Assembly: GCA_945787125.1 (NCBI GenBank)
Contig: CALZHW010000004.1
Location: forward strand, 3,139-63,451
Direction of reading: 5' to 3'
DNA length: 60,313 nucleotides
Source of the DNA: an uncultured Ectothiorhodospiraceae bacterium
GTDB taxonomy: Bacteria; Pseudomonadota; Gammaproteobacteria; S012-40
Both the position numbers and the translations under genes were made by a program. Below the pieces are notes generated by a model. It was not told the origin of the DNA, made no database searches, and saw only the letters and a program-made list of their open reading frames with translations. Shown piece after piece: positions 12,053 through 31,957 of this stretch. The stretch's first letter is position 1. Every line of letters starts with the position of its first letter.

Positions 12053-12120
12053 CAGGCTTTTTTAAGGCTTAGCTTTTTCAGGCTTAGCTTTTTCAGGCTT
12101 AGCTTTTCCCAGGTTTAGCC
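12053..12120. repeat. 15-bp tandem repeat (AGGCTTAGCTTTTTC, about 3 full plus 2 partial units)
   Basis: Read directly: caggctttttta AGGCTTAGCTTTTTC AGGCTTAGCTTTTTC AGGCTTAGCTTTTCC caggtttagcc. Abuts and overlaps the bactofilin stop codon. Confidence 0.8.
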
Positions 12121-12570
12121 TAGATGCCGTGAATCTTGTGGGAAATCCAGGCTAGGTATTGCTAAAGGCCGATTGTTGCGTCGATCTTCCAGATCAATGG
12201 GTTGTTTATTGTTGTCCATAAAGATTTCGCAATTTAACTTAGCGCTTTTTGCAATTAATATTGAAGGTGCAGTGATTGAGCCGATGATTTGCGCGCTGGG
12301 CTCTATTTGAATTTTCTTGCGTGCAATGATGCTGCCTTCGACAAAACCTTCAACAATGACTGTGTCAGCAACTGCTTTGCCAATCCAGACGCAATCTTTG
12401 CCAATGACTAGCAAGCCTTTGATATCACTTTCACCTTCTACGCGGCACATAACTTCGATGCTGCCATCGCAACGAATTTCACCGGCGATATTGATGTTTT
12501 GTGGTATTTGAATCAAATTATTTCCCCCCGCGCACGAAGTGCTTATTATTTCTTCGTCATATAGTAGCAT
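12115..12570 (-). CDS. bactofilin-family polymer-forming cytoskeletal protein
   Basis: 151 aa. Repetitive beta-helix-type sequence (IAGEIRCDGSIEVMCRVEGESDIKGLLVIGKDCVWIGKAVADTVIVEGFVEGSIIARKKIQIEPSAQIIGSITAPSILI) typical of the bactofilin/DUF583 domain. Confidence 0.75.
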   Translation of the reverse strand: MLLYDEEIISTSCAGGNNLIQIPQNINIAGEIRCDGSIEVMCRVEGESDIKGLLVIGKDCVWIGKAVADTVIVEGFVEGSIIARKKIQIEPSAQIIGSITAPSILIAKSAKLNCEIFMDNNKQPIDLEDRRNNRPLAIPSLDFPQDSRHLG

Positions 12571-12682
12571 AGACGATTTACCAGAAATACTAATTCTTGC
12601 ATGTTAGGTAGGCCTTATTGCTGGCGTAGTATGGTTGAAAAAATGACATTTCTGCGCGATATTGTTTGCTATTGCACGCGAG

Positions 12683-13453
12683 TTAGTGGAAATCAAGGTG
12701 CAGCAATCGGCCTCCAGTCCGGTTTGCTATTGTTTGATATTCCTGGGTAGTTGCAGGGTCGGAGCGCCCTAGAGGTAAAGTAAAAACTGGGCTGGGAATA
12801 GCTGAATAAAGAATTTCATCGTCAGATGGCTCGTCGCCGACTAATATGTAAGCGCCGGGTTTGGGTGCATTGCGAGCCGCTACCCGAAACGCTTTGCCGA
12901 TAGTTTCCAGGTTGCCGCTAAATGGTGCGCCAGATAGCAAACTATCAAAAATCGAACCTAATGTGCCGGTATAGGTTTCTGCTTCAAAATCAGAATACCA
13001 GGTGAGAGCCGATAAGGTTTTGCCAGAGCGCACGACAATCGTTCTGAGCACGGGAACCAGGAAGGATGTTAGGCCATGCATTGAGCCGGAGGCATCAATT
13101 ATTAAATGCAGATCTTTGCCGGGTAGATTTTTTAGTCCTTCGATAAAGACGTCGAAATCTTTCCTACCGAAAGTTGCAGATTCAATGATGCGCTGCATGG
13201 GGCTGGACTCGGCGCTTAATGACATTTCTTCCATGTTTTTTGTTAATCGTTGACTGTCCATTTCAGATGTGGCCAGTTGATTTTCAAGTTCTACGATTTT
13301 TTGCTTAAGTCGAGGGACTTCAAATTCCTGCGCCATTCGAGAGGTAATTAATATGGTGACCATCAAAAATATAAAGGTCGCCAACATTAATAACGTTACA
13401 TCAGAAAAACTTTCGTAGATGTTGCTGTAGCTTGCTTTCTTCTTTCGTGTCAT
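12683..13453 (-). CDS. MotB-like stator TM segment fused to a periplasmic vWA domain
   Basis: 256 aa. N-terminal single TM with a conserved acidic residue (ESFSDVTLLMLATFIFLMV; compare the MotB/ExbD-type YADxMTxLLxFF). A coiled coil follows, then a vWA domain with the MIDAS motif DASGSM (HLIIDASGSMHG). No OmpA/PG-binding motif. The start overlaps the upstream gene stop (ATGA). Confidence 0.6.
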   Translation of the reverse strand: MTRKKKASYSNIYESFSDVTLLMLATFIFLMVTILITSRMAQEFEVPRLKQKIVELENQLATSEMDSQRLTKNMEEMSLSAESSPMQRIIESATFGRKDFDVFIEGLKNLPGKDLHLIIDASGSMHGLTSFLVPVLRTIVVRSGKTLSALTWYSDFEAETYTGTLGSIFDSLLSGAPFSGNLETIGKAFRVAARNAPKPGAYILVGDEPSDDEILYSAIPSPVFTLPLGRSDPATTQEYQTIANRTGGRLLHLDFH

Positions 13454-14457
13454 GATTCGTCAGTTTTCTTGTTCAAGTGATTGCGAAACGATGCCCACCA
13501 GCCGCGGTTGAGATTGTTCATCAACGTTAACTCTTGACGGATTAATACGCGGTAATATTTTTGCATGCGCAGCGTTTCGCGAAGCGTGTATACGCCCTCT
13601 TCGTCGCCTACTGTATTGGTATTCAGCTTTTTAATCGAATCATGAAAATCATTAATCGATTCTTTTGAGTCACGAAATGCGCCGCGTAAGGCTTGTACTT
13701 TTTCCCCTAGTGCGTCAATTTCAACGTTTAAGAAACGAACGTCGCGCTCTATAGTAGGTTTGAAGTCTGATGACAAGTGCACCATGCATATTTTGGTGAT
13801 GTAATCTTGCAGGCCGCCTATGCCATTATCGGTGATCAGGGCGAAAATTCTGAGTAGTACGCCCCCCAGCACAGCGCCAAGCAGTGTGGTGTAAAAGGCG
13901 GTGCCCATGCCGCTCATGGCTTTTCGTAAACCTTCCAATAATAAATCCTGATCTTGCCCGAGCGCATCGAGTGAGGCTGTAAGACCGGTCAACGTCAGCG
14001 TCAAGCCCATTACGGTACCGATCAAGCCCAGAGTGATCAGCAGGTTGCCTAAGACCTCAATGGCATGGCATCGACGAGTGAGTGTTGAATATTCCATGTC
14101 GAGTAATATTTCAATTTGCGGCGATTCGTTACTCATGGCGACGATTTTCAATGATTCGAAAAAACGGTTGACGGTTCTAGGCTTCTTGTTAGTTGCTTCT
14201 AGTCCCATTAGGCCTTGGTCTTTGGCGATTTCTTCTTGGTTTGTGGCTTCGATGTATTCAGAGGTTATTGATATCGTGAGAAGAAAACTACCGAGAACGC
14301 CCACCATAAAGAGAAAGATTATTATCCAAGTGATTTTACTTTCATCGTGGCTTAGGAAATCCAGGATGTCAGTGTCGAGGTACAAGCTGAGATAAATTGT
14401 AGTTGCGGCTGATGCCCATAAAAGCCACATGACAAATGTGCGATAAGCACTATTCAT
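13450..14457 (-). CDS. MotA/TolQ/ExbB-family proton-channel protein with C-terminal coiled-coil tail
   Basis: 335 aa. Two N-terminal TMs and a cytoplasmic loop, then the family core LGNLLITLGLIGTVMGLTLTL ... MGTAFYTTLLGAVLGGVLLRI. The last ~120 aa are a hydrophilic helical tail (VEIDALGEKVQALRGAFRDSKESINDFHDSIKKL...). Confidence 0.65.
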   Translation of the reverse strand: MNSAYRTFVMWLLWASAATTIYLSLYLDTDILDFLSHDESKITWIIIFLFMVGVLGSFLLTISITSEYIEATNQEEIAKDQGLMGLEATNKKPRTVNRFFESLKIVAMSNESPQIEILLDMEYSTLTRRCHAIEVLGNLLITLGLIGTVMGLTLTLTGLTASLDALGQDQDLLLEGLRKAMSGMGTAFYTTLLGAVLGGVLLRIFALITDNGIGGLQDYITKICMVHLSSDFKPTIERDVRFLNVEIDALGEKVQALRGAFRDSKESINDFHDSIKKLNTNTVGDEEGVYTLRETLRMQKYYRVLIRQELTLMNNLNRGWWASFRNHLNKKTDES

Positions 14458-14873: not shown

Positions 14874-16370
14874 TTATTGCATGCTGCGTTCATCGGGAGT
14901 TGCTGTTTCTAGAGGTTTCTCGCTTTCTCGATTGGCTTTTTCGTCTTGAGCCAGTCGTTGCTGAGTGGATAAACCGACATTTGAGTTTCGCACTTTTACA
15001 ATAACTCCAGCTTTAAATAACCCCAGTGTTTCTGTTTCACCCGTTAAATTGGCCAATGAATCCGCTAATGGTTTGTTTTTTGGGTCTCTTGGGTCAAACG
15101 TAAGGTGGGTCAGGCTTTTAAGCGCTTCCGACATTTTCTCCTGGTCGTCCATTGCTGGTGGTAAGGGGAATACATCGCGCTTGGTGGCGAGCATAGTGCG
15201 CGCTGGCCATTGGCTGGCGGCGCGAAAAGGCACGTCGGGGTTAGAGGCTTCCGCAATCATGCTCTGTATTAATTCATCCACTGGATCGAGAATGGCGTGA
15301 CGAATAGTAAGGACATGATTTTTATCTTGCATCATAAAGTGTGTGCTTATTATTAGTACGGCTATCAGTACAAATCCTCTTTGACCAAGTAGCCCGGTTT
15401 TTTGTCGGGATTGGTTGAAGCTGATAAGGTAATGTGTTCCGCGATAAAGCAGTAGCGTAATTGCGACGAGTGCCCAGCTACCATCTGGCATAACGAGGCC
15501 GAGAATTATGCACAGCGCGAGGATGGATCCAAGAAAGTCGGTTTTTAAAAATTTTGTATCAATTGCCATCAGCAGAATCAGAAAAAGGCTAGCGATGATG
15601 CCGGCAGCCCACTGTATATCTTCCGCGCTCCAGATTATTGAACCTTGAAGAGATATGGCTAGCTGTTCAACAGGGTTGCCAAAAAAATTCAGATTTTGCC
15701 AGCCACCAATAAGTAACAGTGAGAGCACGGCTGATATTAAAATTCCGATATACATGTGGCGCGAGGTCTTGAGCTCATGAGGGTTTTTAAACCAGCGCCA
15801 CGCTAGAGCAATGGGGTAAGCGAGTGCAATCGGATGGATTGTCGTCAATATTGCGATCCAGAGCATTTGAGAAAAATACCATCCACCAAAGTAATTTGGG
15901 TTCTTTCGGTAAGCATTATCAAGCCATACCCCTAAGACAAATCCCAGTAGAATGTAGGGGCCAGCGGCCATTGAATCTATCTGGGTGATCATACTTGGGG
16001 AGATTAATAATAACGCCGAAGCAATAATGGCTGTGTCGCCATGGGGGAACTTCTTTGCCCAATGGTACAGCATGGTAACCGCCAAAAAACCTAATACCAA
16101 AAGCAGTAATTTTGCTGCAAGTAAATTGCCGGGCCAGTAAGTGCCGATAGGTATATATAGTAGGGCGCGAAAGTCAGGTACACCAAATATGACTATTGGG
16201 TTGATTATATTGTCTGCGACTGTCCAGGTTAGTAACAAGCCTTTAGCGGCTTGTTCATCCAGCGCGAACGGGCTGAGACGGATAAGGTCGATGAAAATTG
16301 CTGCAGTAATCCAGATGCCAAGAGCAACAAGTCCCCAGTATTTTTCAAGGTATGTTTTTATAGTTTCCAT
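14874..16370 (-). CDS. polytopic membrane protein, possibly GT-C-fold (ArnT/PMT-like) glycosyltransferase
   Basis: 498 aa with about 11 TM spans. An acidic DE pair sits in the first extracytoplasmic loop (SPFALDEQAAKG). C-terminal ~130-aa soluble tail. Confidence 0.4.
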   Translation of the reverse strand: METIKTYLEKYWGLVALGIWITAAIFIDLIRLSPFALDEQAAKGLLLTWTVADNIINPIVIFGVPDFRALLYIPIGTYWPGNLLAAKLLLLVLGFLAVTMLYHWAKKFPHGDTAIIASALLLISPSMITQIDSMAAGPYILLGFVLGVWLDNAYRKNPNYFGGWYFSQMLWIAILTTIHPIALAYPIALAWRWFKNPHELKTSRHMYIGILISAVLSLLLIGGWQNLNFFGNPVEQLAISLQGSIIWSAEDIQWAAGIIASLFLILLMAIDTKFLKTDFLGSILALCIILGLVMPDGSWALVAITLLLYRGTHYLISFNQSRQKTGLLGQRGFVLIAVLIISTHFMMQDKNHVLTIRHAILDPVDELIQSMIAEASNPDVPFRAASQWPARTMLATKRDVFPLPPAMDDQEKMSEALKSLTHLTFDPRDPKNKPLADSLANLTGETETLGLFKAGVIVKVRNSNVGLSTQQRLAQDEKANRESEKPLETATPDERSMQ

Positions 16371-16939
16371 AAAAGTTAGATCGATTATTTTTCTCAGTGG
16401 TTGTTGTAAAAATACACGTGCTTTAGGTAGTGCAATAGATTGTCTATGCTGCGTTCATAAATAGCAAGTCTCCCAAGTTCGATTAGTCAGCCAGGAAAAA
16501 ATAAAGTTGCAGAAAGGCGCTGTAGCCAAGCTCTGGGTTTTTGCGGATTCGTTTTAATTTTTTTCGTTGAAACTGATGACAGCTTGCATTGCAGTAGGTA
16601 TTATTAATGCTCTGTGGGTCAGCTAATTGGAATTTCGGCAAGTTTTGTTGAAATGAAGTTGACAGCTTTTTGGTTTAGTGGTTGAATGCCACGTTAGTTG
16701 GTGTTTTATCACCGGTTAATTTTGGTATTAATAACATATAAGAGGGAGATGGGCCGTGTTAGATACACAATCAATCGCACTAATTTATGTAATTTGGTTT
16801 GTTGGCGCTTTTGTCTTATCGTGGACTATGCTTAAGCTAAATTCTTAATCAGTACAAGTACGAAGGGCTCCTGGTCGATAAGTATCGCTATGGAGTAGGG
16901 TTAATTCTGGGAGGCTATTAATTGGGAGGGCTTCTTGAT

Positions 16940-17698
16940 ATGAGACGTTATGTAAAAGCAATGTCGACAGCAGTAGTTGTAGCTGGCTTAGTTGTGCCAG
17001 CAATTGCGGTGTCGTCACCGATGTATCCGAAAGGCAAGGGCAATATTGCCGCTGGGAAACAAATTTTCGAAAATGGTAAGGGGACTGTCCCCGCCTGTAC
17101 TGCTTGTCATTCAGAAGATGGCATGGGCAATGATGACATGGGTACGCCGCGCATCGCAGGTCAATATGCAGTATTTTTGAGAAAACAACTTGAAGATTTT
17201 GCGACTGACAAGCGTAAAGATAATACCATGGGTGTAATGAATGATAATGCGAAAGGTTTAAGTCCGCAGGATCGTACCGATGTCTCTACCTATCTAGAAT
17301 CGATTGATCCAGGCGCCAAAGGCGAGATGTTTTTCAATGGTTCCAACCTGGAAGAGCTTACCGCAAATGGTGTTGAAGTTGGAGCAACTCATAAAGGCAA
17401 AAGCCTGGTTGAGTGGGGTCAAGGCAATCGCCAAAAACCCGTTGCAGCTTGCAGATCTTGTCATGGCTTTAACGGCCGTGGTGCACCACCGATCTATCCT
17501 CGCATAGGCGGTCAGCGTTACGTTTATTTAGTTAATCAATTGAAAGCATGGAGAGATGGCACTCGCAATAATGATCCAATGGGTCAGATGCAAGCTATCG
17601 CTCGCAATATGTCAGATGAAGACATCAAAAATGCTGCAGCTTACTTAACTAAAGCATCAGACTATACGAAAGGTAATTTTTACACACCTTACGATTAA
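16940..17698 (+). CDS. diheme cytochrome c4
   Basis: Signal peptide, then two class-I heme motifs (CTACH and CRSCH), each with a downstream Met region (DDMGTPRIAGQ / PIYPRIGGQ). ATG at 16940 lies 9 nt after GGGAGGG. The listed ORF starts at an upstream TTG. Confidence 0.85.
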   Translation: MRRYVKAMSTAVVVAGLVVPAIAVSSPMYPKGKGNIAAGKQIFENGKGTVPACTACHSEDGMGNDDMGTPRIAGQYAVFLRKQLEDFATDKRKDNTMGVMNDNAKGLSPQDRTDVSTYLESIDPGAKGEMFFNGSNLEELTANGVEVGATHKGKSLVEWGQGNRQKPVAACRSCHGFNGRGAPPIYPRIGGQRYVYLVNQLKAWRDGTRNNDPMGQMQAIARNMSDEDIKNAAAYLTKASDYTKGNFYTPYD

Positions 17699-17720
17699 TG
17701 CCTGCTGTAAAAGATAAAAA

Positions 17721-17747
17721 AGGCGGGAACTTTCCCGCCTTTTTTTA
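17721..17747 (+). terminator. rho-independent terminator after cytochrome c4
   Basis: AGGCGGGA-actt-TCCCGCCT followed by TTTTTTT. Confidence 0.85.
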
Positions 17748-17827
17748 TTCTAGTTAATATTACTTTAGCGTGCGATCCTCATACGCAGGATTGCGTCTCC
17801 GGTTAACAGAAACAGCGGCAGCATTAT

Positions 17828-18457
17828 ATGAAAAAAAAATCTCAACCTTTAAAGTCAGGTGAAAAAATACTATTCATAGTTTTCGGCGTATTTTTTGTTC
17901 TCGCAACGATTGCTTATGTTGGGCTCGAAACAGTTCGATTGAATTCCGATGAGCCTATGTTTGAGCAAACAACATTTTTTGATTTTTCTGAAGAAGGGAA
18001 GAAAGGATCGGAATTGTATCGCAAGGCACGATGTAATTCTTGTCACCGCGCCTTAAGGTCGGGTACCAGCATGGGGTTGATATTGGACGGAATTGGCTCA
18101 AAGCGCTCCGTCGAGTGGCTGGAGGCATTTATTTTAAATCCTGAAGCAACCTATGGTCATGAAACGCTGGATCATGGACCGTCACCGAAAGAAGCGGCCT
18201 ACGCGATGAAGATGCCGCGAGAAGATATTACGCGGATAGCAATATTTTTATCAGAACTCAAGGCCGATCCAGGATCCTCCGTATCCAAAATGCCACCACC
18301 AGAGCACTCAGTGTTTATTGATAGCATGGTTAAAATGTGGGCACCTGCAGAGTGGAAAGAAAAATACACTGATATTCGAGATAGAAAGCCTGAAGAAGAG
18401 GCAGTAAATGTTGAACAAGAGCAAATAAAATCAGAAGGGGATCTGGTCAATGAGTGA
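17828..18457 (+). CDS. membrane-anchored monoheme cytochrome c, FixO/CcoO-like
   Basis: 209 aa with an N-terminal TM and one CNSCH. GSELYRKARCNSCH ... GLILDGIGSKRSVEWLEAFILNPE parallels the CcoO pattern G..(I/L)Y..(E/A).C..CH ... GPDL..(V/I)G.(R/K).S.EW....L.NP. Confidence 0.65.
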   Translation: MKKKSQPLKSGEKILFIVFGVFFVLATIAYVGLETVRLNSDEPMFEQTTFFDFSEEGKKGSELYRKARCNSCHRALRSGTSMGLILDGIGSKRSVEWLEAFILNPEATYGHETLDHGPSPKEAAYAMKMPREDITRIAIFLSELKADPGSSVSKMPPPEHSVFIDSMVKMWAPAEWKEKYTDIRDRKPEEEAVNVEQEQIKSEGDLVNE

Positions 18458-18992
18458 TGTAGTTGTGCCGGCATGGCGTCATGAAAAAGAATTGATATAT
18501 AAGAAATATACTTTGTGGTTTATTTATGCGTGCATAATTTACAGTCTTATCGGATTTTCTTGGGGCGCGATTATGGGCGGAATTACCGAACTCCGTCATT
18601 TTGTTGATCATCGCTTGCATGGAGACTTAATTGTAAGGGGTCATACCCACATTAACCTTCTAGGTTGGGTGGAAATGGCAATATTCGGCGCAGTTTATTA
18701 TATTATTCCTCGCTTGGTAAACCGGCCTATCTATAGTCTAAAGCTAGTTATTGTGCACTTCTGGATTCATAATATTGGTTTGATTGGAATGGTCGTGTTC
18801 TTTGTCATGGCCGGCACAATGGGTGGTATGGCTAGTGTTAACTCATCTCCACAGGATGTGGAGAGCATAGTGCAGCCCTTGCTCGCTACGATGGGGATAT
18901 TCGGCACCATGGTATTGCTAGCTAATTGCATTTGGGCGTACAATCTCTTTAAAACGTGTGCGAATTGGGAGAAAAATTATGCGACTAACTAA
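18450..18992 (+). CDS. four-TM mini heme-copper-oxidase subunit-I-like protein (CcoN helix VI-VII-like fragment)
   Basis: 180 aa. RGHTHINLLGWVEMAIFGAVYYIIPRLVNRPIYSLKLVIVHFWIHNIG aligns residue for residue with FWFAHNVLGLWITPVAAAIAYYTIPKLTGNPLYSHRIGHLHFWSII of the full-length CcoN-like gene at 20918. Overlaps the preceding cytochrome gene by 8 nt. Confidence 0.6.
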   Translation: MSDVVVPAWRHEKELIYKKYTLWFIYACIIYSLIGFSWGAIMGGITELRHFVDHRLHGDLIVRGHTHINLLGWVEMAIFGAVYYIIPRLVNRPIYSLKLVIVHFWIHNIGLIGMVVFFVMAGTMGGMASVNSSPQDVESIVQPLLATMGIFGTMVLLANCIWAYNLFKTCANWEKNYATN

Positions 18993-19485
18993 GTTGCTAA
19001 TTCTAGCGGCGTTCAGTTTGACTACAGTAAGCATCAGTGGTTGTTTTGCCCCCGAAGGTGTGCTTAAGATTGGTGCTGTTGCACCACCCATAAAAACCCG
19101 TTCATTGCGAGATGTCGGTGGTGATATGTCGCGCCTAACAAGTTATCGTTATCCTGATGAAAGAATGTACCGTTACTCTATAGACGAAGCGGTAACTATG
19201 GGGAAGACAGTTTTACTGGAATTCGCGACGCCTGGGCATTGCACGGTATGTGATAAGCAGTTGCAAATGCTAAAAGCCATGGTGACCAAGTACTCGGGTG
19301 ATGTGCTATTTTTACATATGGATCAATATATGAACCCGCAGGCGTTTAAGGCGTTTCGTGTAAAGGGGGATCCCTGGACATTTATCATCGATAAAGATGG
19401 GATCGTGCAATTCAAACAAGCTGGTCGAATTTTGTATGGCGAATTGGATCATCATTTAGCGAAAGTAATAAATGCAAAAAGTTAA
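18979..19485 (+). CDS. TlpA/ResA-like thioredoxin-fold lipoprotein (thiol-disulfide oxidoreductase)
   Basis: Lipobox SISGC. Thioredoxin-type LLEFATPGHCTVCDKQ (CxxC). ATG 7 nt after GGGAG. The listed ORF begins at an upstream alternative start. Confidence 0.65.
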   Translation: MRLTKLLILAAFSLTTVSISGCFAPEGVLKIGAVAPPIKTRSLRDVGGDMSRLTSYRYPDERMYRYSIDEAVTMGKTVLLEFATPGHCTVCDKQLQMLKAMVTKYSGDVLFLHMDQYMNPQAFKAFRVKGDPWTFIIDKDGIVQFKQAGRILYGELDHHLAKVINAKS

Positions 19486-19487
19486 TT

Positions 19488-19943
19488 ATGGCAAAAGAAT
19501 TCGAATACATACTTCATAAAGATAAAAAAGGCACGATGTGGGATTTGCTTTTGTATATTCCGACAACAATTGCACTTGCCGTCGTTGCTTCAAAGATGTG
19601 GTACGCTGGCAACGAGGGGCTGAGTTATCTTCTAGTGTTTTTAACCACGTTTATTGTGCTGATCGCTTTTAACCGAATTGCCAAGACCCGGCTAATGCTT
19701 ATTCCTAGTTCGCCGGTAAGTCTAAATGTCTCTAAGCAGGGCGTGGCATTAACATTGAGAAGCGGTAATGTGATCGAGTTGGTGAAGGATATAAGGTTTT
19801 TTACTGACTTTGCAGGGCGAAGTTACGGCTTGTCGGGTTTTGACTTGTCAGGCAGCAAGCAGCAGTTTGTTTTCCATAAGGGGCAGTTTGCCTCGGATAC
19901 AGAGTTTGATGGTTCTAAAGCGCAATTAAGAGTGTTTAAGTAA
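19488..19943 (+). CDS. two-TM membrane protein with C-terminal soluble (bPH-like?) domain
   Basis: 151 aa. Starts 2 nt after the previous stop. Hydrophobic hairpin at residues ~20-65. No recognisable catalytic motif. Confidence 0.45.
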   Translation: MAKEFEYILHKDKKGTMWDLLLYIPTTIALAVVASKMWYAGNEGLSYLLVFLTTFIVLIAFNRIAKTRLMLIPSSPVSLNVSKQGVALTLRSGNVIELVKDIRFFTDFAGRSYGLSGFDLSGSKQQFVFHKGQFASDTEFDGSKAQLRVFK

Positions 19944-19949
19944 TGCAAT

Positions 19950-19983
19950 AAAGGAAGGGTTATTTTAGTCCCTTCCTTTTTTT
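19950..19983. terminator. bidirectional rho-independent terminator
   Basis: AAAGGAAGGG-ttattttagt-CCCTTCCTTT followed by TTTT. Lies between convergent genes and overlaps the last codons of the minus-strand gene. Confidence 0.7.
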
Positions 19984-20157
19984 AACGATATCCAAACCTA
20001 GAAAAAACAAACCTATGGCCCAGGCTATAGTTACCCCAACTTGAATTTTAAATTTCAAGTCATCTTCTATGAGTCCGTCAAGAAACATATGTGGCGTATA
20101 AGATATCATCAACAATGATGATACTGCTATTAACAAATAAACAAGTGTTTCTTTCAT
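19960..20157 (-). CDS. small two-TM membrane protein (65 aa)
   Basis: ATG at 20157 preceded by GCAGGGGGA. Translation: MKETLVYLLIAVSSLLMISYTPHMFLDG...VGVTIAWAIGLFFLGLDIVKKRKGLK. Confidence 0.45.
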   Translation of the reverse strand: MKETLVYLLIAVSSLLMISYTPHMFLDGLIEDDLKFKIQVGVTIAWAIGLFFLGLDIVKKRKGLK

Positions 20158-20457
20158 GTTTCCCCCTGCATTGTATTTTATCTTTTTCAATTCTAACAAT
20201 TTAGTTTACTAAAATAACAGTAGATTAATACCAAATTGTTTTTAAAGCTCTTCGAAATACAGCTAAATAATTCTTGATTTAGAAAAATACTCAGGCGCTA
20301 GAAAAGTTTTTTTACTTTAGTCTTGACGACAACTCATGTGTGTGTCAGGATTTCCCAGTTTCTATGACATTTCCTTTAAGGCAAACGCTTTAATTAGGTG
20401 AATATTTGAAGAAACTTTTTTTTGGGATGTGGGTATAAACTCACTTTGGAGGGAAAA

Positions 20458-20748
20458 ATGAAAAATAAGCTAACGCTTGGGAAAACTTTTTGGGTTCTTC
20501 TAATTGCCGCATTTACCACAGGTATGGGTAATGGTAGTGTATTTGGTGCCGCAGTAATGTGTGCAGTAGGTCGCGGACCATACGAAAGCTGGGGTGGATG
20601 GGGAATGGAGTCATATGACCCAACAACTTTTTCTGGTTTTGTAGATTGGATGATGTTTGTGTTTGGTCTTGCTTTCGCTATCATCACAGGTTTGGCTATG
20701 GGCAAACATGGTGAGCTCGAAGCACGTGGCGATAACACAACCTGGTAG
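20458..20748 (+). CDS. two-TM membrane protein (96 aa), first gene of the ccoN-like operon
   Basis: ATG preceded by TGGAGGG. Translation: MKNKLTLGKTFWVLLIAAFTTGMGNGSVFGAAVM...FVDWMMFVFGLAFAIITGLAMG. Confidence 0.55.
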   Translation: MKNKLTLGKTFWVLLIAAFTTGMGNGSVFGAAVMCAVGRGPYESWGGWGMESYDPTTFSGFVDWMMFVFGLAFAIITGLAMGKHGELEARGDNTTW

Positions 20749-20773
20749 ACATTATGAAAGAGGGGGATAATTT

Positions 20774-20866
20774 ATGTTGGCTACAATTGCAGGAACATTC
20801 GGAATTATCTTGGCATTCTCAAGTATGTGGATGTCTTGGTATCTATTGAATAAGATGAACGAATGA
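20774..20866 (+). CDS. 30-aa single-TM peptide, not in the ORF track
   Basis: AGAGGGGG lies 7 nt upstream of the ATG. Translation: MLATIAGTFGIILAFSSMWMSWYLLNKMNE. Sits immediately before the ccoN-like gene. Confidence 0.4.
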   Translation: MLATIAGTFGIILAFSSMWMSWYLLNKMNE

Positions 20867-20917
20867 TTTGTAATCTTATATTTTCTGGGGTTAAATTTAA
20901 CTGGGAGGTGAAGTTTC

Positions 20918-22327
20918 ATGTTGATGAAATATCTCTTCGCCAAGAATGAAGAAATTCCTGCTGGATCGGCAACGATCTTTTTTGGTTTTTCATCCATTTT
21001 TTGGTTTGTAGTAGGGACTGGTTTAGGTTCTTTTAATGCGGCAAAGCTTGCTTTTCCTGACTGGGTAACCGGTACTGAGCTTTTCGCTTTTGGTCACATG
21101 CGTCAAGTGCATGTTTTGGCAGTTATTCTGGGCTGGATTTCAATGGCATTTGGTATGACCATGATGTACATGACTCCCGCCTTAGGTAACACTAAGTTAT
21201 GGTCCGAGAAATTGGGTCTTTGGACAGTGTTCATGTGGAACGTTGGTCTTAGCTTGGGTCTAACACTATTATGGATGGGTATCACATCTGGTCGTGAGTA
21301 TAGCGATCTTATCTGGCCAATCGATTTAGTCGTTATATTCGGCGTATTGTTACCTTTGGGTATCAACGTATGGATGACCATTTCGCATCGTAAAACTCAA
21401 GGTATATACATCACCAACTGGTTCTTTGGTGCTTGTATCTTCATGCTCATGATCGTTTTCTTTGTCGGTAATTCACCAGAATTATTTAATCTGACCGGTC
21501 TGACTGAGGCGTATCTAACGTTTTGGTTTGCTCATAACGTATTGGGATTGTGGATAACGCCAGTTGCAGCAGCAATTGCTTACTACACGATTCCAAAACT
21601 GACGGGTAACCCACTATACTCTCACCGTATTGGACATCTGCATTTCTGGTCTATCATCGCTTTCTATTCAACTCCTGCTTCGCATCACTTAATGTCTGCG
21701 CCATTGCCTGAGTGGTTGAAGTCTTTTGCTTCAGTAGAAGGTGTTTTGATCTTGATCCCAGCAGTGGCATTCGTTGCTAACATTTTGTTAACAATGAAAG
21801 GCAAGTGGAGCTTGTTTGTAGAGAATATTGAAACTAAATTCTCTATTACCGGTGTTCTACTCGCAATTCCATTGAATATGCAAGGTGGATTCCAGCAAAC
21901 ACGTGCGATTAACTGGTATGTTCATGGAACAGGCTGGATAGTTGCTCACGCTCACTTGGCACTGTTAGGAATGTCTAGCTTCTTGGAAGCCGCAGCCGTT
22001 TACTTTGGTTTGCAGCAAATGTTGAGAAGAAAGCTTTATTCTTTAACCTTAGCTAACTTGCATTACTGGTTCTTTATAATCGGTTTCTGCACATACTGGA
22101 TTTCAATGACAATTGCCGGCCTTATGCAGGGTGCAGGTAAAATCTATGAAGTACCTTATATCGACGTAGTTGTAGCAGAGCATCCATACATGATCGCTCG
22201 CTGGGCCGGCGGTACAATGGTATTCACTGGTAATGTGATCTGGTTATACAACATGTGGATGACAGCTCGCGAAGGAACTATTGTTCCATCTGGCCGTTAC
22301 GCACACGAGTTGGCTTACGAGCGTTAA
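20918..22327 (+). CDS. ccoN: C-family (cbb3-type) heme-copper oxidase subunit I, divergent CcoN
   Basis: 469 aa, ~12 TM, collinear with CcoN. Motifs: MRQVHVLAV (helix II heme His), REYSDLIWPID, GIYITNWFFG, FWFAHNVLG (helix VI CuB His), YYTIPKLTGNPLYSHRIGHLHFW, FYSTPASHHLMSAPLPEW (Tyr six residues before the HH CuB pair) and IVAHAHLALLG (HxH heme ligands). GGGAGGTG lies 7 nt upstream. Confidence 0.85.
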   Translation: MLMKYLFAKNEEIPAGSATIFFGFSSIFWFVVGTGLGSFNAAKLAFPDWVTGTELFAFGHMRQVHVLAVILGWISMAFGMTMMYMTPALGNTKLWSEKLGLWTVFMWNVGLSLGLTLLWMGITSGREYSDLIWPIDLVVIFGVLLPLGINVWMTISHRKTQGIYITNWFFGACIFMLMIVFFVGNSPELFNLTGLTEAYLTFWFAHNVLGLWITPVAAAIAYYTIPKLTGNPLYSHRIGHLHFWSIIAFYSTPASHHLMSAPLPEWLKSFASVEGVLILIPAVAFVANILLTMKGKWSLFVENIETKFSITGVLLAIPLNMQGGFQQTRAINWYVHGTGWIVAHAHLALLGMSSFLEAAAVYFGLQQMLRRKLYSLTLANLHYWFFIIGFCTYWISMTIAGLMQGAGKIYEVPYIDVVVAEHPYMIARWAGGTMVFTGNVIWLYNMWMTAREGTIVPSGRYAHELAYER

Positions 22328-22420
22328 GATAAACGTTTTGTAAAACAATATAGTAATTAACTTCTTCTTATCTTCGGGAGTTGTCCCGGAGATAAGAAGG
22401 TTAGGGAGGAGGAATTACAA

Positions 22421-23377
22421 ATGGCCTTTCAAAGATATAAATTCGGTGCAGCAGGCATCGGTTTAATGTTTGGCTTTTCAATGTCAATTACACTTTTTGG
22501 CCCAGCCAATGACTTCCGCTCAGGAGTGTCAACTTGGGTAGGTTTGGATAAGCAATTGTCATTGGGTCGAGTAATCGGATTTTCTTATGAGGATCCTTTG
22601 GTTATAGGTGATGGCAAACCCATTGTCGTTATTTTAGATAAAGATCCAAAGACTGGCGCAGCGATTGATCCACCACAGCGTGCCTATGTCTATTCGGCAG
22701 GAATCAAGTTCTCTCCAGGTGTTAATCACCCAGAGTTGCTTGGTCCAGGTGTGCGGGATTTGAGTGAAGGCAAAGGTCAAATTGCACAAGCAAATATGGC
22801 TACTGGCGCAGTATTCACTATTGGTAAAGACGAGTTCAATGGTGAAGAGCTCGACTATATAGTAAATGCGACGGCAGTTAGTGGTTGGACTCCAGCAGAA
22901 GTCTTATCAGCAGCAGGCGATGAAAATATGCGCTATGTTGGTAAGGGCAAGACAATCTACATTACTGAAGGTTGCTGGTGGTGTCACACGTTATTGCCAG
23001 AGCAAACGCAAGATTGGCAGTTTTTTGGCGCACCCCCGTTCTTAGGTGATATGAATGGTGAGATGCCAACAGCTTTCGGTTCAGACCGAAAAGCACCTGA
23101 CTTGTTGCATGTAGCTTCTCGCAATTCTTCTCGTGAATGGATGACCATGCACTTCTTTAATCCACGCTTGGTGCAGCCAAATTCAATCATGCCACGCTTT
23201 GATTATCTTTGGGGTAAAAAAGACGCTAGTGGGAATACCATTGATTTTAAAAAATGGCGTGCCGATTACACAGCGTACGTAAATGGCAAAACCATTTACC
23301 CACCTGAAGTTCCAGAGCCAGCGCGCACAGCTGAAGTTCGTGCGTTGATTGACTGGGTATTAACATCACTACGATAG
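22421..23377 (+). CDS. ccoO: CcoO/FixO-like monoheme cytochrome c subunit with ~110-aa insertion
   Basis: 318 aa with an N-terminal TM anchor and a single CWWCH. GKTIYITEGCWWCH ... GSDRKAPDLLHVASRNSSREWMTMHFFNPRLVQPNSIMPRF is collinear with CcoO. About 175 residues precede the heme motif, against ~65 in canonical CcoO. Confidence 0.8.
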   Translation: MAFQRYKFGAAGIGLMFGFSMSITLFGPANDFRSGVSTWVGLDKQLSLGRVIGFSYEDPLVIGDGKPIVVILDKDPKTGAAIDPPQRAYVYSAGIKFSPGVNHPELLGPGVRDLSEGKGQIAQANMATGAVFTIGKDEFNGEELDYIVNATAVSGWTPAEVLSAAGDENMRYVGKGKTIYITEGCWWCHTLLPEQTQDWQFFGAPPFLGDMNGEMPTAFGSDRKAPDLLHVASRNSSREWMTMHFFNPRLVQPNSIMPRFDYLWGKKDASGNTIDFKKWRADYTAYVNGKTIYPPEVPEPARTAEVRALIDWVLTSLR

Positions 23378-23389
23378 GGGATTAGTATA

Positions 23390-24028
23390 ATGGGATGGAA
23401 ATTTGATCAACCTCTCTATTGCCTCTCTGATGAGCAAGAGCAAAAAGAGACACTCGAGTTGTGGGAAAAACAAAAGTTTGGTGGATTATCGTCAGGCAAT
23501 AATCGCTTGCCTTTCCCTCTAACCTTTTTGATTGCATTAATTGTAATGACAGCGTTCCTTGTAACTATGCCTATTTGGGGTCAACGCCCTAATGCGCAAA
23601 TTTACACGAGTTTCGTTGCAGCAATGGATGATCCTCAAGTGCAGCAGCTTGCTACACCTGAAGAGAAGATTGCCTATGTTACTCAGCAAGCAATGGCTCA
23701 GGCTGATGGTGTTCTTCAAGGTGCAATTGAAAGACACCCATTGGCGTGGGATGATCTTTTGAATATTGCGCCGCAAATCAAAGAGCTACAAGCTAGCGGT
23801 AGTAAGTATTCTTTGGATAACTACAATGTGGTGGGTGATCGTATTGCGCTTGCCAATTTTGAAGGAAACTTTGTTGAAGGTGGTCATAGAGAGCGTAAAC
23901 AGCCTTGGTGGGATAAAGGTTACACCATTGACGTTTTTTATGTAGCTTACTTCATGATAGCCATAGTATTAATCACTAAGCAGCTTCCACATTTTTCACG
24001 GAAGCCTGACATGTCTAATGCTAAATAA
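23390..24028 (+). CDS. heme-less FixP-N-terminal-like membrane protein (two TM)
   Basis: 212 aa. NRLPFPLTFLIALIVMTAFLVTMPIWGQRP resembles the CcoP N-terminal motif (LPxWWxxxFxxTIxFxxxYxxxYP). No CxxCH. Second TM near the C-terminus. Confidence 0.5.
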   Translation: MGWKFDQPLYCLSDEQEQKETLELWEKQKFGGLSSGNNRLPFPLTFLIALIVMTAFLVTMPIWGQRPNAQIYTSFVAAMDDPQVQQLATPEEKIAYVTQQAMAQADGVLQGAIERHPLAWDDLLNIAPQIKELQASGSKYSLDNYNVVGDRIALANFEGNFVEGGHRERKQPWWDKGYTIDVFYVAYFMIAIVLITKQLPHFSRKPDMSNAK

Positions 24029-24042
24029 TTGGGAGATATCGA

Positions 24043-24189
24043 ATGATTGATTTAGATTACGGCCCTGGTGTGTTCGCTTTGTGGATTGCGGTAACAATAA
24101 TTTGCCCTGCAATATATGGCATCTTTTTTGTTGATGCAAACTGGGAAAAGCACAAAGATGAAGACTCTTCTGAAGACGTTTTTAACTAA
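24043..24189 (+). CDS. 48-aa single-TM peptide (CcoQ-position), not in the ORF track
   Basis: GGGAG lies 7 nt upstream. Translation: MIDLDYGPGVFALWIAVTIICPAIYGIFFVDANWEKHKDEDSSEDVFN. Last ORF before the terminator. Confidence 0.45.
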   Translation: MIDLDYGPGVFALWIAVTIICPAIYGIFFVDANWEKHKDEDSSEDVFN

Positions 24190-24211
24190 TCATTAGTTTC
24201 ATCGAGTAAGG

Positions 24212-24240
24212 AAAGCCGCTCTTTTTAGAGCGGCTTTTTT
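24212..24240 (+). terminator. rho-independent terminator closing the ccoN-like operon
   Basis: GCCGCTCT-tttt-AGAGCGGC followed by TTTTTT. Confidence 0.85.
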
Positions 24241-24296
24241 GATTAATTTATAGTAGACTATTTGTCTGTAATTTGAGTCAGAGTTTATTGAACAAA

Positions 24297-24623
24297 ATGT
24301 TAGATATAATATCCAATGTGATTGAGCTTATCTTTTCAAATGCACTCGGCTACATACCGCAGCTATTGGCAGAAGGTAATAAATATGTATTTGGGCTTGA
24401 CATGAGTATTGATAGTCTCAGGTCAAGGGAATTTAGTGTATATATCTTTATATTTTTAATATTGTCGCTTATTTTATTTTGCTACATTATTTACTTGTAC
24501 TTACCCAAAAAACTATCTTCGTTGAAAACCGGAGAAAAAGTTATGTTTGGTGCACTGATATTTGGTGTTATAGCAGCTGTGATCATGGGATACATACAAT
24601 TGATTGAAGGCTATCTAATTTAG
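24297..24623 (+). CDS. membrane protein (about 108 aa, two C-terminal TMs)
   Basis: ORF 24273..24623, with the first ATG at 24297. Contains FSVYIFIFLILSLILFCYIIYLYL and MFGALIFGVIAAVIMGYIQLI. The start is uncertain. Confidence 0.4.
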   Translation: MLDIISNVIELIFSNALGYIPQLLAEGNKYVFGLDMSIDSLRSREFSVYIFIFLILSLILFCYIIYLYLPKKLSSLKTGEKVMFGALIFGVIAAVIMGYIQLIEGYLI

Positions 24624-24643
24624 ATTTAGGTTGAGGAGTTACA

Positions 24644-24925
24644 ATGATCGAGTGGATTGAGAGTTTACCAGATGGATGGACGATATATTTGTGGCTGGTT
24701 GTAGCAGCTATGATTTTAGTTGGCGCCGGTTTTATGCTTCGCTGGGCAGCCAAAAACGACCAATTTGACGAAGATATCAAATACGTGATATTTGACGCCG
24801 ATGATAAAGATAAAATGGAGCCCGAAGAATACGCGAAGTATGAGGAAGTCATGAAAGATCAAACGAGTGCGCGTAAAAAATTCTTGTCAGAGAAAGCTGC
24901 AGAAACTAAAGCAAATAAAAAATAA
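24644..24925 (+). CDS. ccoS: CcoS/FixS-like cbb3 oxidase maturation protein with extended acidic/basic tail
   Basis: Single TM followed by LRWAAKNDQFDEDIKYVIFDADDKD, matching the FixS signature W.(A/L).(K/R)(S/N)(G/D)Q(F/Y)D(D/E) ... I(L/F).DD. 93 aa, longer than typical. Confidence 0.65.
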   Translation: MIEWIESLPDGWTIYLWLVVAAMILVGAGFMLRWAAKNDQFDEDIKYVIFDADDKDKMEPEEYAKYEEVMKDQTSARKKFLSEKAAETKANKK

Positions 24926-24927
24926 AT

Positions 24928-25885: not shown

Positions 25886-25886
25886 T

Positions 25887-26954: not shown

Positions 26955-27005
26955 TGCTTGGGTGAAAATAGAGTATCGTCGGTTCATTATATTGGGAGAG
27001 ACTGG

Positions 27006-27245: not shown

Positions 27246-27257
27246 CTGGGGGTTAAA

Positions 27258-27611: not shown

Positions 27612-27623
27612 TGAGCTGAATTC

Positions 27624-31953: not shown

Positions 31954-31957
31954 CGTT

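What the first reader, a model, noticed from the sequence alone, without database searches (positions are those of the whole stretch)
12115..14457. MotA/MotB-like ion-driven stator whose B subunit carries a periplasmic vWA domain, with a coiled-coil-tailed A subunit and an adjacent bactofilin
Two translationally coupled genes (ATGA overlap) encode a candidate stator pair.
- A subunit: a MotA/ExbB/TolQ-family channel protein with the family core (GLIGTVMGLTLTL ... TAFYTTLLGAVLGGVLL) and a ~120-aa cytoplasmic helical tail.
- B subunit: an N-terminal MotB-like TM helix including the conserved acidic residue (SFSDVTLLMLATFIFL; compare the protonatable Asp of MotB/ExbD/TolR). Its periplasmic part is a coiled coil plus a vWA domain with an intact MIDAS motif (DASGSM). 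The OmpA-like peptidoglycan-binding domain is absent.

Known 5:2 motor families (MotAB, ExbBD, TolQR, GldLM, AglRQS, ZorAB) couple ion flow to work on a specific partner. A vWA output module suggests a different, metal-dependent protein ligand in the periplasm. The tailed A subunit resembles the ZorA architecture on a smaller scale. A bactofilin gene follows 112 nt downstream on the same strand, which raises the possibility of a cytoskeleton-linked motor. I cannot place this pair in any characterised stator family from sequence alone.
Basis: partly seen in the sequence, partly recalled or inferred. Interest (0 to 1): 0.65.

Follow-up and report, generated by a model that had tools for sequence, protein, structure and literature searches.

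The report
Proton-motor gene pair with vWA head
Two overlapping genes encode what looks like a small ion-driven membrane motor whose inner subunit ends in a metal-dependent binding (vWA) domain in the periplasm. A 2025 paper predicted this design by computer and nobody has tested it; this is a distinct single-copy version that stays close to an unusual respiratory oxidase gene cluster.

Summary
- On the minus strand, gene A (13450-14457) is a MotA/ExbB/TolQ-family protein by HMM and by fold. It has a conserved cytoplasmic tail of about 125 aa made of two helices.
- Gene B (12683-13453) overlaps A by ATGA. It has one N-in membrane helix with an invariant Asp18, a coiled coil, and a compact C-terminal domain with a vWA fold and an invariant D-A-S/T-G-S-M motif.
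- A bactofilin gene follows 112 nt downstream.

The pair can be placed: it is a divergent branch of the "TolQ-like + trans-pore-helix vWA" motors predicted in silico in Mol Biol Evol 2025 (PMC12204202). Its nearest paralog found here is a classic example with two vWA genes (A subunits 34% identical). It differs in having one B gene, a smaller vWA domain and a tailed A subunit.

The bactofilin link is local: adjacent in 11 of 16 genomes of the window's own order and in 0 of 25 genomes from other families.

The new lead is a link to the "distal" cbb3 oxidase gene island.
- A and B are a single-copy pair of uncultured Gammaproteobacteria.
- They co-occur with the island in 25 of 28 genomes, against 2 of 373 without the pair.
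- They lie within about 8 kb of island genes in 40 of 53 informative loci, in at least four arrangements.

Function is untested.

The parts
13450..14457 (-). Gene A, 335 aa. MotA/ExbB/TolQ-family channel subunit. Probably 4 TM helices (about 8-27, 42-65, 136-158, 183-205) followed by a conserved cytoplasmic two-helix tail (about 211-335).
   Evidence: Pfam PF01618 scores 32.7 bits. Foldseek top hits are ExbB, TolQ, PomA, MotA and ZorA. TM3 GNLLITLGLIGTV and TM4 AMxGMGTAFYTTLLG are invariant, including T142, T148, T186 and T191. Tail residues E309, N317 and W321 are invariant.
12683..13453 (-). Gene B, 256 aa. Trans-pore-helix protein with a coiled-coil stalk and a periplasmic vWA head. Its start overlaps the stop of A (ATGA).
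   Evidence: Single copy. Adjacent to A in 78 of 78 loci.
13328..13414 (-). B residues 14-42: the single membrane helix. The invariant Asp18 (codon 13400-13402) sits near its cytoplasmic end.
   Evidence: Hydropathy and charge analysis. D18 is invariant in 34 homologs. The helix is 37% identical (E=3e-7) to the helix of a vWA protein from a paired-type cluster.
12686..13117 (-). B residues 113-256: compact vWA-fold domain. The DxSxS motif D120-A-S122-G-S124 lies at 13082-13096. The GDEPSDD loop (D207) is invariant.
   Evidence: AF2 pLDDT is about 90 in this domain. Foldseek PDB top hits are all vWA domains, with E down to 1.2e-5. Invariant columns are listed.
12115..12570 (-). Bactofilin gene, 151 aa, 112 nt downstream of B. 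A lineage-specific neighbour.
   Evidence: Pfam PF04519 scores 62.2 bits. Adjacent to B in 11 of 16 genomes of the window's own order and in none of 25 genomes from other families.
14874..16370 (-). Orphan 498-aa polytopic membrane protein ('mem498'), upstream of A. It is a boundary gene of the oxidase island and sometimes sits next to A-B.
   Evidence: No Pfam, NCBIfam, PADLOC or PDB match. Adjacent to A-B in 18 of 80 loci, either upstream of A or downstream of B. Present in 27 of 28 A-B-positive genomes, usually about 6 kb from the distal CcoN gene.
16922..33115 (+). Context: the 'distal' cbb3-type oxidase gene island. It includes di-heme and mono-heme cytochromes c, a truncated CcoN, a thioredoxin, CcoN, FixO, an accessory operon and a CcoG-like gene. 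It diverges from the mem498-A-B genes.
   Evidence: Pfam hits. The same island is described for Tenderiales in bioRxiv 10.1101/2022.05.06.490989, Fig. 2B.

Best explanation
A and B most likely form an ion (proton)-driven inner-membrane motor of the MotAB/ExbBD/TolQR/ZorAB kind, probably five A subunits to two B subunits.

Proposed mechanism (inferred by analogy):
- Five A subunits would form the ring. Their conserved TM3 and TM4 Thr/Gly faces would surround two B trans-pore helices, each carrying the invariant Asp18.
- Protonation and deprotonation of Asp18 would drive rotation of the ring relative to the B dimer.
- The B dimer continues as a coiled-coil stalk of about 40 residues. It displays two compact vWA heads in the periplasm.
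- The DxSxS/D207 site of each head would capture an acidic residue of a conserved envelope partner in a metal-dependent way.
- One possibility is that the heads are anchored and the A ring turns, together with its conserved cytoplasmic helical-hairpin tails. The other is that the B dimer turns and pulls or twists its ligand.

Placement. The pair belongs to the computationally predicted 'TolQ-like + TPH-vWA' class. It is a distinct branch of that class, with a single B gene and a tailed A subunit.

Likely context. The pair is a single-copy gene pair found in all 16 genomes of the window's own order and in 14 GTDB families of uncultured chemolithotrophic Gammaproteobacteria. It is inherited together with the distal cbb3 oxidase island and usually lies close to it. 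Its physiological setting is therefore more likely respiratory or envelope biogenesis than motility or phage defence.

Shown here: the families and folds, the invariant residues, the gene coupling, the distribution and the synteny. Inferred: the stoichiometry, the rotation, the ion used, the ligand and the link to the oxidase.
For: A subunit: MotA_ExbB HMM above the cut-off; ExbB/TolQ/MotA/ZorA fold; invariant TM3 and TM4 Thr/Gly motifs.

B subunit: ATGA-coupled to A; N-in single helix with invariant Asp18; vWA fold with invariant D-A-S/T-G-S-M and GDEP.

Coupling and distribution:
- A and B are adjacent in 78 of 78 loci.
- Their phyletic patterns are identical, 28 of 28 genomes.
- The pair is single-copy in 16 of 16 genomes of the order.

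Placement: the nearest paralog is a cluster with a TolQ-like gene and two TPH-vWA genes. A is 34% identical (E=1e-22), the B helix is 37% identical (E=3e-7), and the partner passes Pfam VWA_2. The class and its proposed mechanism are described in PMC12204202.

Constraint: B is more conserved than A (68% against 60% mean column identity), which points to a strongly constrained ligand interface.

Oxidase context:
- 40 of 53 informative loci have island genes within about 8 kb, in at least four arrangements, on both sides of the A+B tree.
- Co-occurrence with distal CcoN: both present in 25 genomes, B only in 3, CcoN only in 2, neither in 371. One of the three 'B only' cases is an assembly gap.
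Against: - No multimer model or experiment exists, so the 5:2 stoichiometry and rotation are analogy only.
- The N-terminus of B has no significant HMM match to ExbD, MotB or ZorB.
- No Pfam VWA model hits B.
- The Thr of a canonical five-residue MIDAS site cannot be assigned. E183 is invariant and T184 varies.
- The oxidase link is not obligate. G099 and G239 have A-B without the oxidase, and family f74 has the oxidase island without A-B.
- Where A-B adjoins the CcoG-like gene, a convergent lipoprotein gene lies between them, so they are neighbours and not one operon.
- Co-occurrence may partly reflect shared ancestry of one clade.
Confidence: 0.68

Rival explanations
1. In this order the module is a three- or four-gene unit (mem498-A-B-bactofilin). 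The conserved cytoplasmic tail of A would couple the motor to a bactofilin polymer.
For: - A bactofilin gene lies directly downstream of B, on the same strand, in 11 of 16 genomes of the window's own order, spanning nine genera.
- The gap is 15-245 nt in L002-L008.
- The adjacent bactofilin is an extra, lower-scoring paralog (63-79 bits, against 85-91 bits for the other copy).
- No terminator-like site was found on the minus strand between B and the bactofilin gene.
Against: - The bactofilin gene is absent next to A-B in all 25 A-B-positive genomes of other families.
- It is also absent next to A-B in L001 and L009, which belong to the same clade.
- Four A-B-positive genomes have no bactofilin at all.
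- The tail of A is equally conserved in lineages without the neighbour.
Confidence: 0.1
2. The pair is a Zorya-like anti-phage sensor. B would anchor in the envelope, and the tail of A would relay a signal to cytoplasmic effectors.
For: - PADLOC ZorA models hit the core of A (best E=8e-7).
- ZorA structures are among the fold matches (8vvn_D, TM-score 0.61 normalised by target length).
- The A subunit has a tail.
- There is a weak match of B to ZorB (8qyd_F, E=0.18).
Against: - The ZorA hits cover only the shared MotA/ExbB core.
- No PADLOC hit was found for B or for the neighbouring genes.
- No nuclease or helicase effector genes are present.
- The pair is single-copy in every genome of the order, in a stable housekeeping and respiratory neighbourhood. 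That is unlike mobile defence islands.
- The tail of A is about 125 aa, whereas the matched ZorA profiles are 461-699 positions long.
Confidence: 0.03
3. The pair is simply a diverged TolQR/ExbBD or flagellar stator set that works with TolA/TonB or with a rotor encoded elsewhere.
For: Membership of the MotA_ExbB family. ExbB and TolQ are the best fold hits. There is a weak ExbD hit for B (E=0.023).
Against: - The genome has eight other, better-scoring MotA_ExbB paralogs.
- B lacks the ExbD/TolR and OmpA-like periplasmic domains and carries a vWA fold instead.
- No TonB, TolA or flagellar genes lie within about 3 kb on either side.
- The A profile finds nothing between the orthologs (E<=1e-117) and the vWA-partnered paralog (E=1e-23) in 401 genomes.
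Confidence: 0.04
4. The pair is a static membrane complex and not a motor. A and B would form a scaffold or channel whose periplasmic vWA domain acts as a passive, metal-dependent assembly factor or adhesin. Asp18 would be kept for helix packing or ion binding, not for rotation.
For: - No energetic or rotational evidence exists for this pair.
- vWA domains often act as passive interaction modules.
- Neither partner of the oxidase association is obligate.
Against: The features that define the ion pathway in the solved motors are all kept under strong constraint across 14 GTDB families. They are the TM3/TM4 Thr-Gly faces, the single Asp near the cytoplasmic end of the partner helix, and the overlapping gene order.
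Confidence: 0.12

Closest known systems
TolQ-like + trans-pore-helix vWA ('TPH-vWA') putative force transducers. Predicted in silico in 'Origin and Evolution of Bacterial Periplasmic Force Transducers', Mol Biol Evol 2025, PMC12204202, section 8 and Fig. 4c-d.
   Same: - A tolQ/motA-like gene is tightly linked to a vWA protein.
- The single membrane helix of that protein carries the MotB/ExbD/TolR-type Asp and lacks the TonB/TolA SHLS motif.
- No tolR, exbD or motB gene is in the cluster.
- The vWA head is periplasmic.
- Homology to a classic paired example (L090) is direct: A is 34% identical (E=1e-22) and the B helix is 37% identical.
   Different: - One B gene instead of the usual heterologous pair.
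- A compact vWA of about 140 aa, below every Pfam VWA threshold. The L090 partner proteins are 335 and 349 aa, and one passes VWA_2.
- A has an extra conserved tail of about 125 aa, whereas the L090 A subunit ends just after TM4.
- The family is tight and bimodal, confined to one group of uncultured Gammaproteobacteria.
- It is syntenic with the distal cbb3 oxidase island.
ExbB-ExbD and TolQ-TolR (PDB 5SV0, 9DDO, 8ODT, 9DDM)
   Same: Best fold matches for A. Same gene order. A single-helix partner with an Asp. Expected 5:2 architecture.
   Different: - The periplasmic domain of B is a vWA fold, not the ExbD/TolR fold.
- No TonB or TolA partner is present.
- A probably has four membrane helices (K/R-rich N-termini in homologs) and a long C-terminal tail.
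ZorA-ZorB of the Zorya defence system (PDB 8QYD, 8VVN)
   Same: A MotA-like core with a C-terminal helical cytoplasmic tail. Weak core HMM hits and fold hits.
   Different: The tail is far shorter. B lacks a peptidoglycan-binding domain. There are no ZorC, ZorD or ZorE genes. The pair is a single-copy chromosomal gene pair, not a defence island.
MoxR AAA+ / vWA maturation pairs such as NorQ-NorD, which insert FeB into cNOR (PMC9976466; PDB 9QHE is among the fold hits)
   Same: A vWA/MIDAS protein coupled to an energy-converting partner, with genes lying beside those of a heme-copper oxidase family enzyme. NorD is Foldseek hit 24 for B.
   Different: The energy source would be a PMF motor rather than an ATPase. 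The vWA domain is predicted to be periplasmic. No sequence relationship beyond the fold was found. A role in oxidase maturation is speculation only.

Membership tests
MotA/ExbB/TolQ channel subunit (Pfam PF01618) | Profile HMM match above the curated cut-off | tested here: met
   32.7 bits against a cut-off of 22.9, residues 115-206. It is the weakest of the nine paralogs in the genome.
MotA/ExbB/TolQ channel subunit (Pfam PF01618) | Fold of the solved A subunits, with conserved Thr/Gly faces on the last two membrane helices | tested here: met
   Foldseek top hits are ExbB, TolQ, PomA, MotA and ZorA, with probability about 1 and E from 2e-3 to 1e-1. T142, T148, T186 and T191 and the flanking Gly residues are invariant.
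MotB/ExbD/TolR/ZorB-type B subunit | Gene directly downstream of A. A single N-in membrane helix with a conserved Asp near its cytoplasmic end. | tested here: met
   ATGA overlap. Adjacent in 78 of 78 loci. Helix at residues 14-42 with a +4/0 N-terminal loop. D18 invariant.
MotB/ExbD/TolR/ZorB-type B subunit | Significant sequence match to the ExbD, MotB_plug or ZorB N-terminal regions | tested here: inconclusive
   ExbD E=0.023, 15.2 bits against a cut-off of 25.4. ZorB 8qyd_F E=0.18 and 8vvi_A E=0.76. All are below significance.
MotB/ExbD/TolR/ZorB-type B subunit | OmpA-like peptidoglycan-binding domain or ExbD/TolR periplasmic domain | tested here: not met
   The C-terminal domain has a vWA fold. 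No OmpA or ExbD domain hit was found.
TolQ-like + TPH-vWA class (PMC12204202) | vWA protein tightly linked to a tolQ-like gene, with no tolR, exbD or motB gene in the cluster | tested here: met
TolQ-like + TPH-vWA class (PMC12204202) | Trans-pore helix with a conserved Asp and without the TonB/TolA SHLS/His motif | tested here: met
   The helix reads SFSDVTLLMLATFIFLMVTILITS and contains no His. D18 is invariant.
TolQ-like + TPH-vWA class (PMC12204202) | Sequence homology to a bona fide paired example | tested here: met
   L090 carries a TolQ-like gene plus two TPH-vWA genes (VWA_2 29.6 bits). A is 34% identical over 148 aa (E=1e-22). The B helix is 37% identical (E=3e-7). The B profile also reaches a fragment of the paired type, P0270, at E=7e-5.
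TolQ-like + TPH-vWA class (PMC12204202) | vWA genes 'predominantly in heterologous pairs' | tested here: not met
   There is one B gene per locus and per genome. The paper says 'predominantly', so this is a difference and not an exclusion.
TolQ-like + TPH-vWA class (PMC12204202) | B dimer inserted in an A pentamer, with the Asp residues ringed by Thr (multimer model) | not testable with these tools
vWA domain with MIDAS site | vWA (Rossmann-like alpha/beta) fold | tested here: met
   The top 17 Foldseek hits (E<=1e-3) are all vWA-fold domains (VWF A2, CMG2, Cav alpha2delta, the Sec24 and TFIIH vWA-like domains and others); Ro60, NorD and integrin domains follow at higher E-values. TM-score normalised by target length is up to 0.58.
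vWA domain with MIDAS site | DxSxS motif plus a distal Thr and a distal Asp | tested here: inconclusive
   D120-x-S/T122-x-S124 and D207 are invariant. The Thr position is ambiguous: E183 is invariant and T184 varies.
vWA domain with MIDAS site | Pfam VWA-family HMM match | tested here: not met
   No VWA family hit at E<=1. Only distant relatives reach VWA_2 or VWA_4, and weakly.
Zorya (ZorAB plus effectors) | Long ZorA tail, ZorB peptidoglycan-binding domain, and ZorC/D/E-type partner genes | tested here: not met
   PADLOC hits only the core of A and gives nothing for B or the neighbours. NCBIfam ZorA scores are 18-19 bits against cut-offs of 100-500.
Bactofilin (PF04519) | Profile match above the cut-off | tested here: met
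   62.2 bits against a cut-off of 27.9.

The most novel reading that the evidence does not exclude
The A-B pair would be a proton-powered periplasmic counterpart of the MoxR-vWA maturation machines such as NorQD. A 5:2 motor would replace the ATPase on the side of the membrane that has no ATP. It would drive a MIDAS-vWA head that remodels or loads a periplasm-facing component of the distal cbb3 oxidase supercomplex. Candidates for that component are the cytochrome c subunits, the truncated CcoN module, or copper delivery together with the CcoG-like reductase. In the window's own order, a dedicated bactofilin would position the machine.
Probability: 0.15. Interest if true: 0.8.

Novelty: new variant of a known kind. 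Interest (0 to 1): 0.45.

Why it matters
Ion-driven 5:2 motors power flagella, TonB-dependent uptake, Tol-Pal, gliding and Zorya defence. Each new output module has revealed a new way of moving energy across the envelope.

A motor whose axle ends in a vWA/MIDAS head has only been predicted on paper. Nobody knows its ligand or its purpose.

This branch is a favourable entry point for four reasons:
- It has only two genes, and B probably forms a homodimer.
- It is very strongly conserved.
- It is present as a single copy in every genome of its order.
- It has a concrete candidate context, because it is co-inherited with, and usually lies next to, the distal cbb3 oxidase island of iron-oxidising and electrode-oxidising bacteria (Tenderiales and relatives).

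If that link is functional, it would connect PMF motors to respiratory-complex biogenesis.

Tried and rejected
- PADLOC and NCBIfam gave only weak ZorA/MotA core hits for A and nothing for B. Zorya was rejected.
- A PDB sequence search with the B profile gave only coiled-coil noise and sub-threshold ZorB hits.
- mem498 has no Pfam, NCBIfam or PDB match, and all its homologs are named 'hypothetical'. It could not be named.
- A literature search for MotA plus bactofilin plus stator found nothing relevant.
- The supplements of PMC12204202 hold no accession for the Idiomarina vWA proteins. A paired example was therefore found by searching 401 genomes with the A profile.
- The exhaustive profile search of 1.84 billion representatives found only one full-length 50% cluster plus fragments and a few LysM-vWA proteins. 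This shows how tight the family is, but gave no functional annotation.
- Promoter and terminator scans were at background level.
- The idea that A-B and the CcoG-like gene form one operon was rejected. A convergent lipoprotein gene lies between them.
- An obligate dependence between A-B and the oxidase was rejected because exceptions exist in both directions.

Full report
**What is there**

Three genes lie on the minus strand.
- A: 13450-14457, 335 aa.
- B: 12683-13453, 256 aa.
- A bactofilin gene: 12115-12570, 151 aa.

The A/B junction reads GAA TCA TGA CAC, so the B start codon overlaps the A stop codon (ATGA). The spacer between B and the bactofilin gene is 112 nt. Upstream of A there is a 416-nt spacer, and then an orphan 498-aa membrane protein gene ('mem498', 14874-16370). 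The spacer contains a MITE-like repeat whose second copy lies at 48652-48866. Beyond mem498, a 16-kb respiratory gene island is transcribed divergently (16922-33115).

**The A subunit**

- Pfam MotA_ExbB matches above its cut-off (32.7 against 22.9 bits).
- PADLOC and NCBIfam give only weak hits to the shared core of ZorA and MotA.
- In 35 homologs the last two membrane helices are almost invariant: GNLLITLGLIGTV and AMxGMGTAFYTTLLG, including T142, T148, T186 and T191.
- An AF2 model (pLDDT 77) matches ExbB, TolQ, PomA/MotA and ZorA chains almost exclusively.
- Hydropathy, together with the K/R-rich N-terminal extensions of homologs, suggests four membrane helices with both ends in the cytoplasm.
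- After the last membrane helix comes a tail of about 125 residues, modelled as two long helices (236-283 and 292-333). It has invariant residues (E309, N317, W321), so the tail is functional and not a linker.

**The B subunit**

- One hydrophobic helix spans residues 14-42. The loop before it has four K/R and no acidic residue, which indicates an N-in topology with the C-terminus in the periplasm.
- Asp18 sits near the cytoplasmic end of the helix and is invariant in 34 homologs.
- The AF2 model continues the helix to residue 80 as a coiled coil. A low-confidence linker follows (74-94), then a conserved helix (GRKDFDxFxxGL), then an alpha/beta domain (113-256) with pLDDT of about 90.
- No Pfam VWA model hits this domain. 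Foldseek against the PDB returns only vWA-fold domains at the top: VWF A2 (E=1.2e-5), CMG2, Cav alpha2delta, Sec24 and TFIIH vWA-like domains, with Ro60, NorD and integrin domains further down.
- D120-A-S/T-G-S124-M and G206-D207-E-P are invariant. This fits a MIDAS-type DxSxS...D site. The canonical Thr cannot be assigned with confidence, because E183 is invariant and T184 varies.
- Sequence similarity of the N-terminus to ExbD, MotB or ZorB is not significant. The claim that B is the motor partner rests on gene coupling, topology and the invariant Asp.

**Conservation**

- About 570 homologs of each protein exist, all from uncultured Gammaproteobacteria.
- In one-genome-per-species data, 195 species encode B. 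In the 80 loci fetched, A directly precedes B in all 78 that have upstream DNA.
- B is single-copy in 16 of 16 genomes of the window's own order. It occurs in 28 of 401 evenly sampled genomes of the class, always with E<=1e-96 and nothing in between. A has exactly the same distribution.
- A profile search of 1.84 billion representative proteins found a single full-length 50% cluster, fragments, and a few distant LysM-vWA or other membrane-anchored proteins with the same compact vWA type.
- B is more conserved than A (68% against 60% mean column identity). This is the reverse of MotAB (PMC12505986) and points to a tightly constrained ligand interface.

**Placing it**

A 2025 paper (PMC12204202) described, from genomics and AF3 models only, vWA proteins that replace TolR/ExbD next to tolQ-like genes. 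Those proteins carry a trans-pore helix with the conserved Asp, lack the SHLS motif, and are 'predominantly found in heterologous pairs'.

I found a classic example of this type as the nearest paralog of A in the 401-genome sample (G267, locus L090). It has a 264-aa TolQ-like protein followed by two paralogous proteins built as membrane-Asp helix, coiled coil and vWA (335 and 349 aa, one passing Pfam VWA_2).
- A is 34% identical to its A subunit (E=1e-22).
- The B helix is 37% identical to one partner (E=3e-7).
- The alignment to the other partner runs as far as the IDxxGSM motif.

The pair is therefore a homologous but distinct branch of that class. It has one B gene (presumably a homodimer), a vWA of about 140 aa that is too divergent for Pfam, and a tail on A that the L090 protein lacks.

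It is not the cell's Tol, Ton or flagellar motor. Eight better-scoring MotA_ExbB paralogs lie elsewhere in the genome.

**The bactofilin**

- Within the window's own order, a bactofilin gene lies directly downstream of B in 11 of 16 genomes, spanning nine genera. It is an extra paralog that scores lower than the other copy.
- Outside the order, none of 25 A-B-positive genomes has it adjacent, and four have no bactofilin at all.
- L001 and L009, inside the same clade, also lack it.

The link is therefore a lineage-specific addition, possibly functional there. It is not a property of the family.

**The neighbourhood that is conserved**

Of the 80 loci, 40 carry genes of the window's respiratory island within about 8 kb of A-B. 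Thirteen with adequate flanks do not, and 27 have flanks too short to judge. The adjacency takes at least four forms:
- (I) cytochrome c cluster <-> mem498-A-B(-bactofilin).
- (II) cytochrome c cluster <-> A-B-mem498.
- (III) A-B, then a convergent lipoprotein gene, then the CcoG-like gene and its two followers.
- (IV) A-B convergent with the accessory operon that ends in the fused spermidine-synthase-like protein.

On a tree of A+B these forms lie on both sides of the midpoint root. The tree needs at least 13 changes of arrangement and at least 6 changes between linked and unlinked.

In the class sample, the island's CcoN is sharply separated from canonical CcoN (at least 76% identity against about 31%). 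It co-occurs with B as follows: both present in 25 genomes, B only in 3, CcoN only in 2, neither in 371. One 'B only' case is an assembly gap.

mem498 behaves as a boundary gene of the island. It usually lies about 6 kb from CcoN and is present in 27 of 28 A-B-positive genomes.

The island itself has been described for Tenderiales, with no mention of a MotA-like gene (bioRxiv 10.1101/2022.05.06.490989).

Caveats:
- The association is not obligate in either direction. G099 and G239 have A-B without the oxidase, and family f74 has the island without A-B.
- A-B is not in one operon with island genes.
- Shared ancestry of one clade could explain much of the co-occurrence.

**Mechanism**

Most likely (about 0.68) the pair is a PMF-driven 5:2-type motor, as set out under the best explanation. 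The periplasmic vWA heads would bind a conserved envelope ligand through a metal site. Either the heads are pulled or turned by the motor, or they anchor the B dimer so that the A ring and its cytoplasmic tails turn. The respiratory context is a lead (about 0.15-0.25), not a finding.

Zorya-like defence, a diverged Tol, Ton or flagellar stator, and a static scaffold are less likely, for the reasons given under the rival explanations.

**Limits**

No multimer modelling and no model coordinates were available. All relatives are uncultured.

Earlier AI notes from this scan had already seen this same family in eight other windows and cited the same 2025 paper. I treated them as leads and re-derived the placement independently.

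**Verdict**

The feature is real, strongly conserved and untested. It is a new variant of a kind already predicted in the literature. Interest is moderate (0.45).

Noticed in passing
L091 (G339:C6) 4868-6774: Another non-canonical pair. A 252-aa MotA_ExbB protein (29.7 bits) is followed by a 201-aa protein with an N-terminal Asp-bearing membrane helix (DPFSDLLFNGLLGFTFLFLL). Its periplasmic part has no Pfam hit and, judged from the sequence alone, does not look like a vWA domain. A 172-aa membrane protein comes next. This may be a further B-subunit output type.
   Followed up: partly
window 14601-14766 and 48652-48866: A MITE-like repeat in inverted orientation, 84-90% identical. It fills part of the 416-nt spacer between mem498 and gene A. 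In relatives this spacer can be as short as 37-102 nt, so the insertion may have split an operon.
   Followed up: partly
window 14874-16370 (-): An orphan 498-aa polytopic membrane protein with no Pfam, NCBIfam, PADLOC or PDB match. All homologs are named 'hypothetical'. It is co-distributed with the distal cbb3 island: 29 of 35 genomes tested, including the two that lack A-B. Its N-terminal half looks by eye like a GT-C glycosyltransferase; this was not tested.
   Followed up: partly
L016 8793-9323 (-), L066 5137-5547 (-), and 17 other loci: A small lipoprotein gene (about 136-176 aa) lies convergent and immediately downstream of B in 19 of 80 loci. It is a candidate periplasmic partner, but nothing tested links it to B.
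   Followed up: no
proteins P0269, P0272, P0273: The same compact vWA type (IDxTGSM ... GDEPGDD) occurs in membrane-anchored proteins that carry a LysM peptidoglycan-binding domain. This hints that the vWA subtype works at the cell-wall layer.
   Followed up: partly
G311:C9:231738-233144: A second copy of the distal CcoN gene with two internal stop codons (1 TGA, 1 TAA) lies beside a mem498 homolog. It is probably a decaying duplicate of the island.
   Followed up: no
window 8017-9297 (hemL); L013 4388-5455 (hemE) and 13 other loci: Heme-biosynthesis genes recur within a few kb of A-B in different lineages: hemL in 9 loci and hemE in 14. This may be housekeeping synteny, or it may be related to the respiratory context.
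   Followed up: no
alignments A1 and A2: The B subunit is more conserved than the A subunit (68% against 60% mean column identity). This is the opposite of what is reported for MotAB families (PMC12505986).
   Followed up: partly
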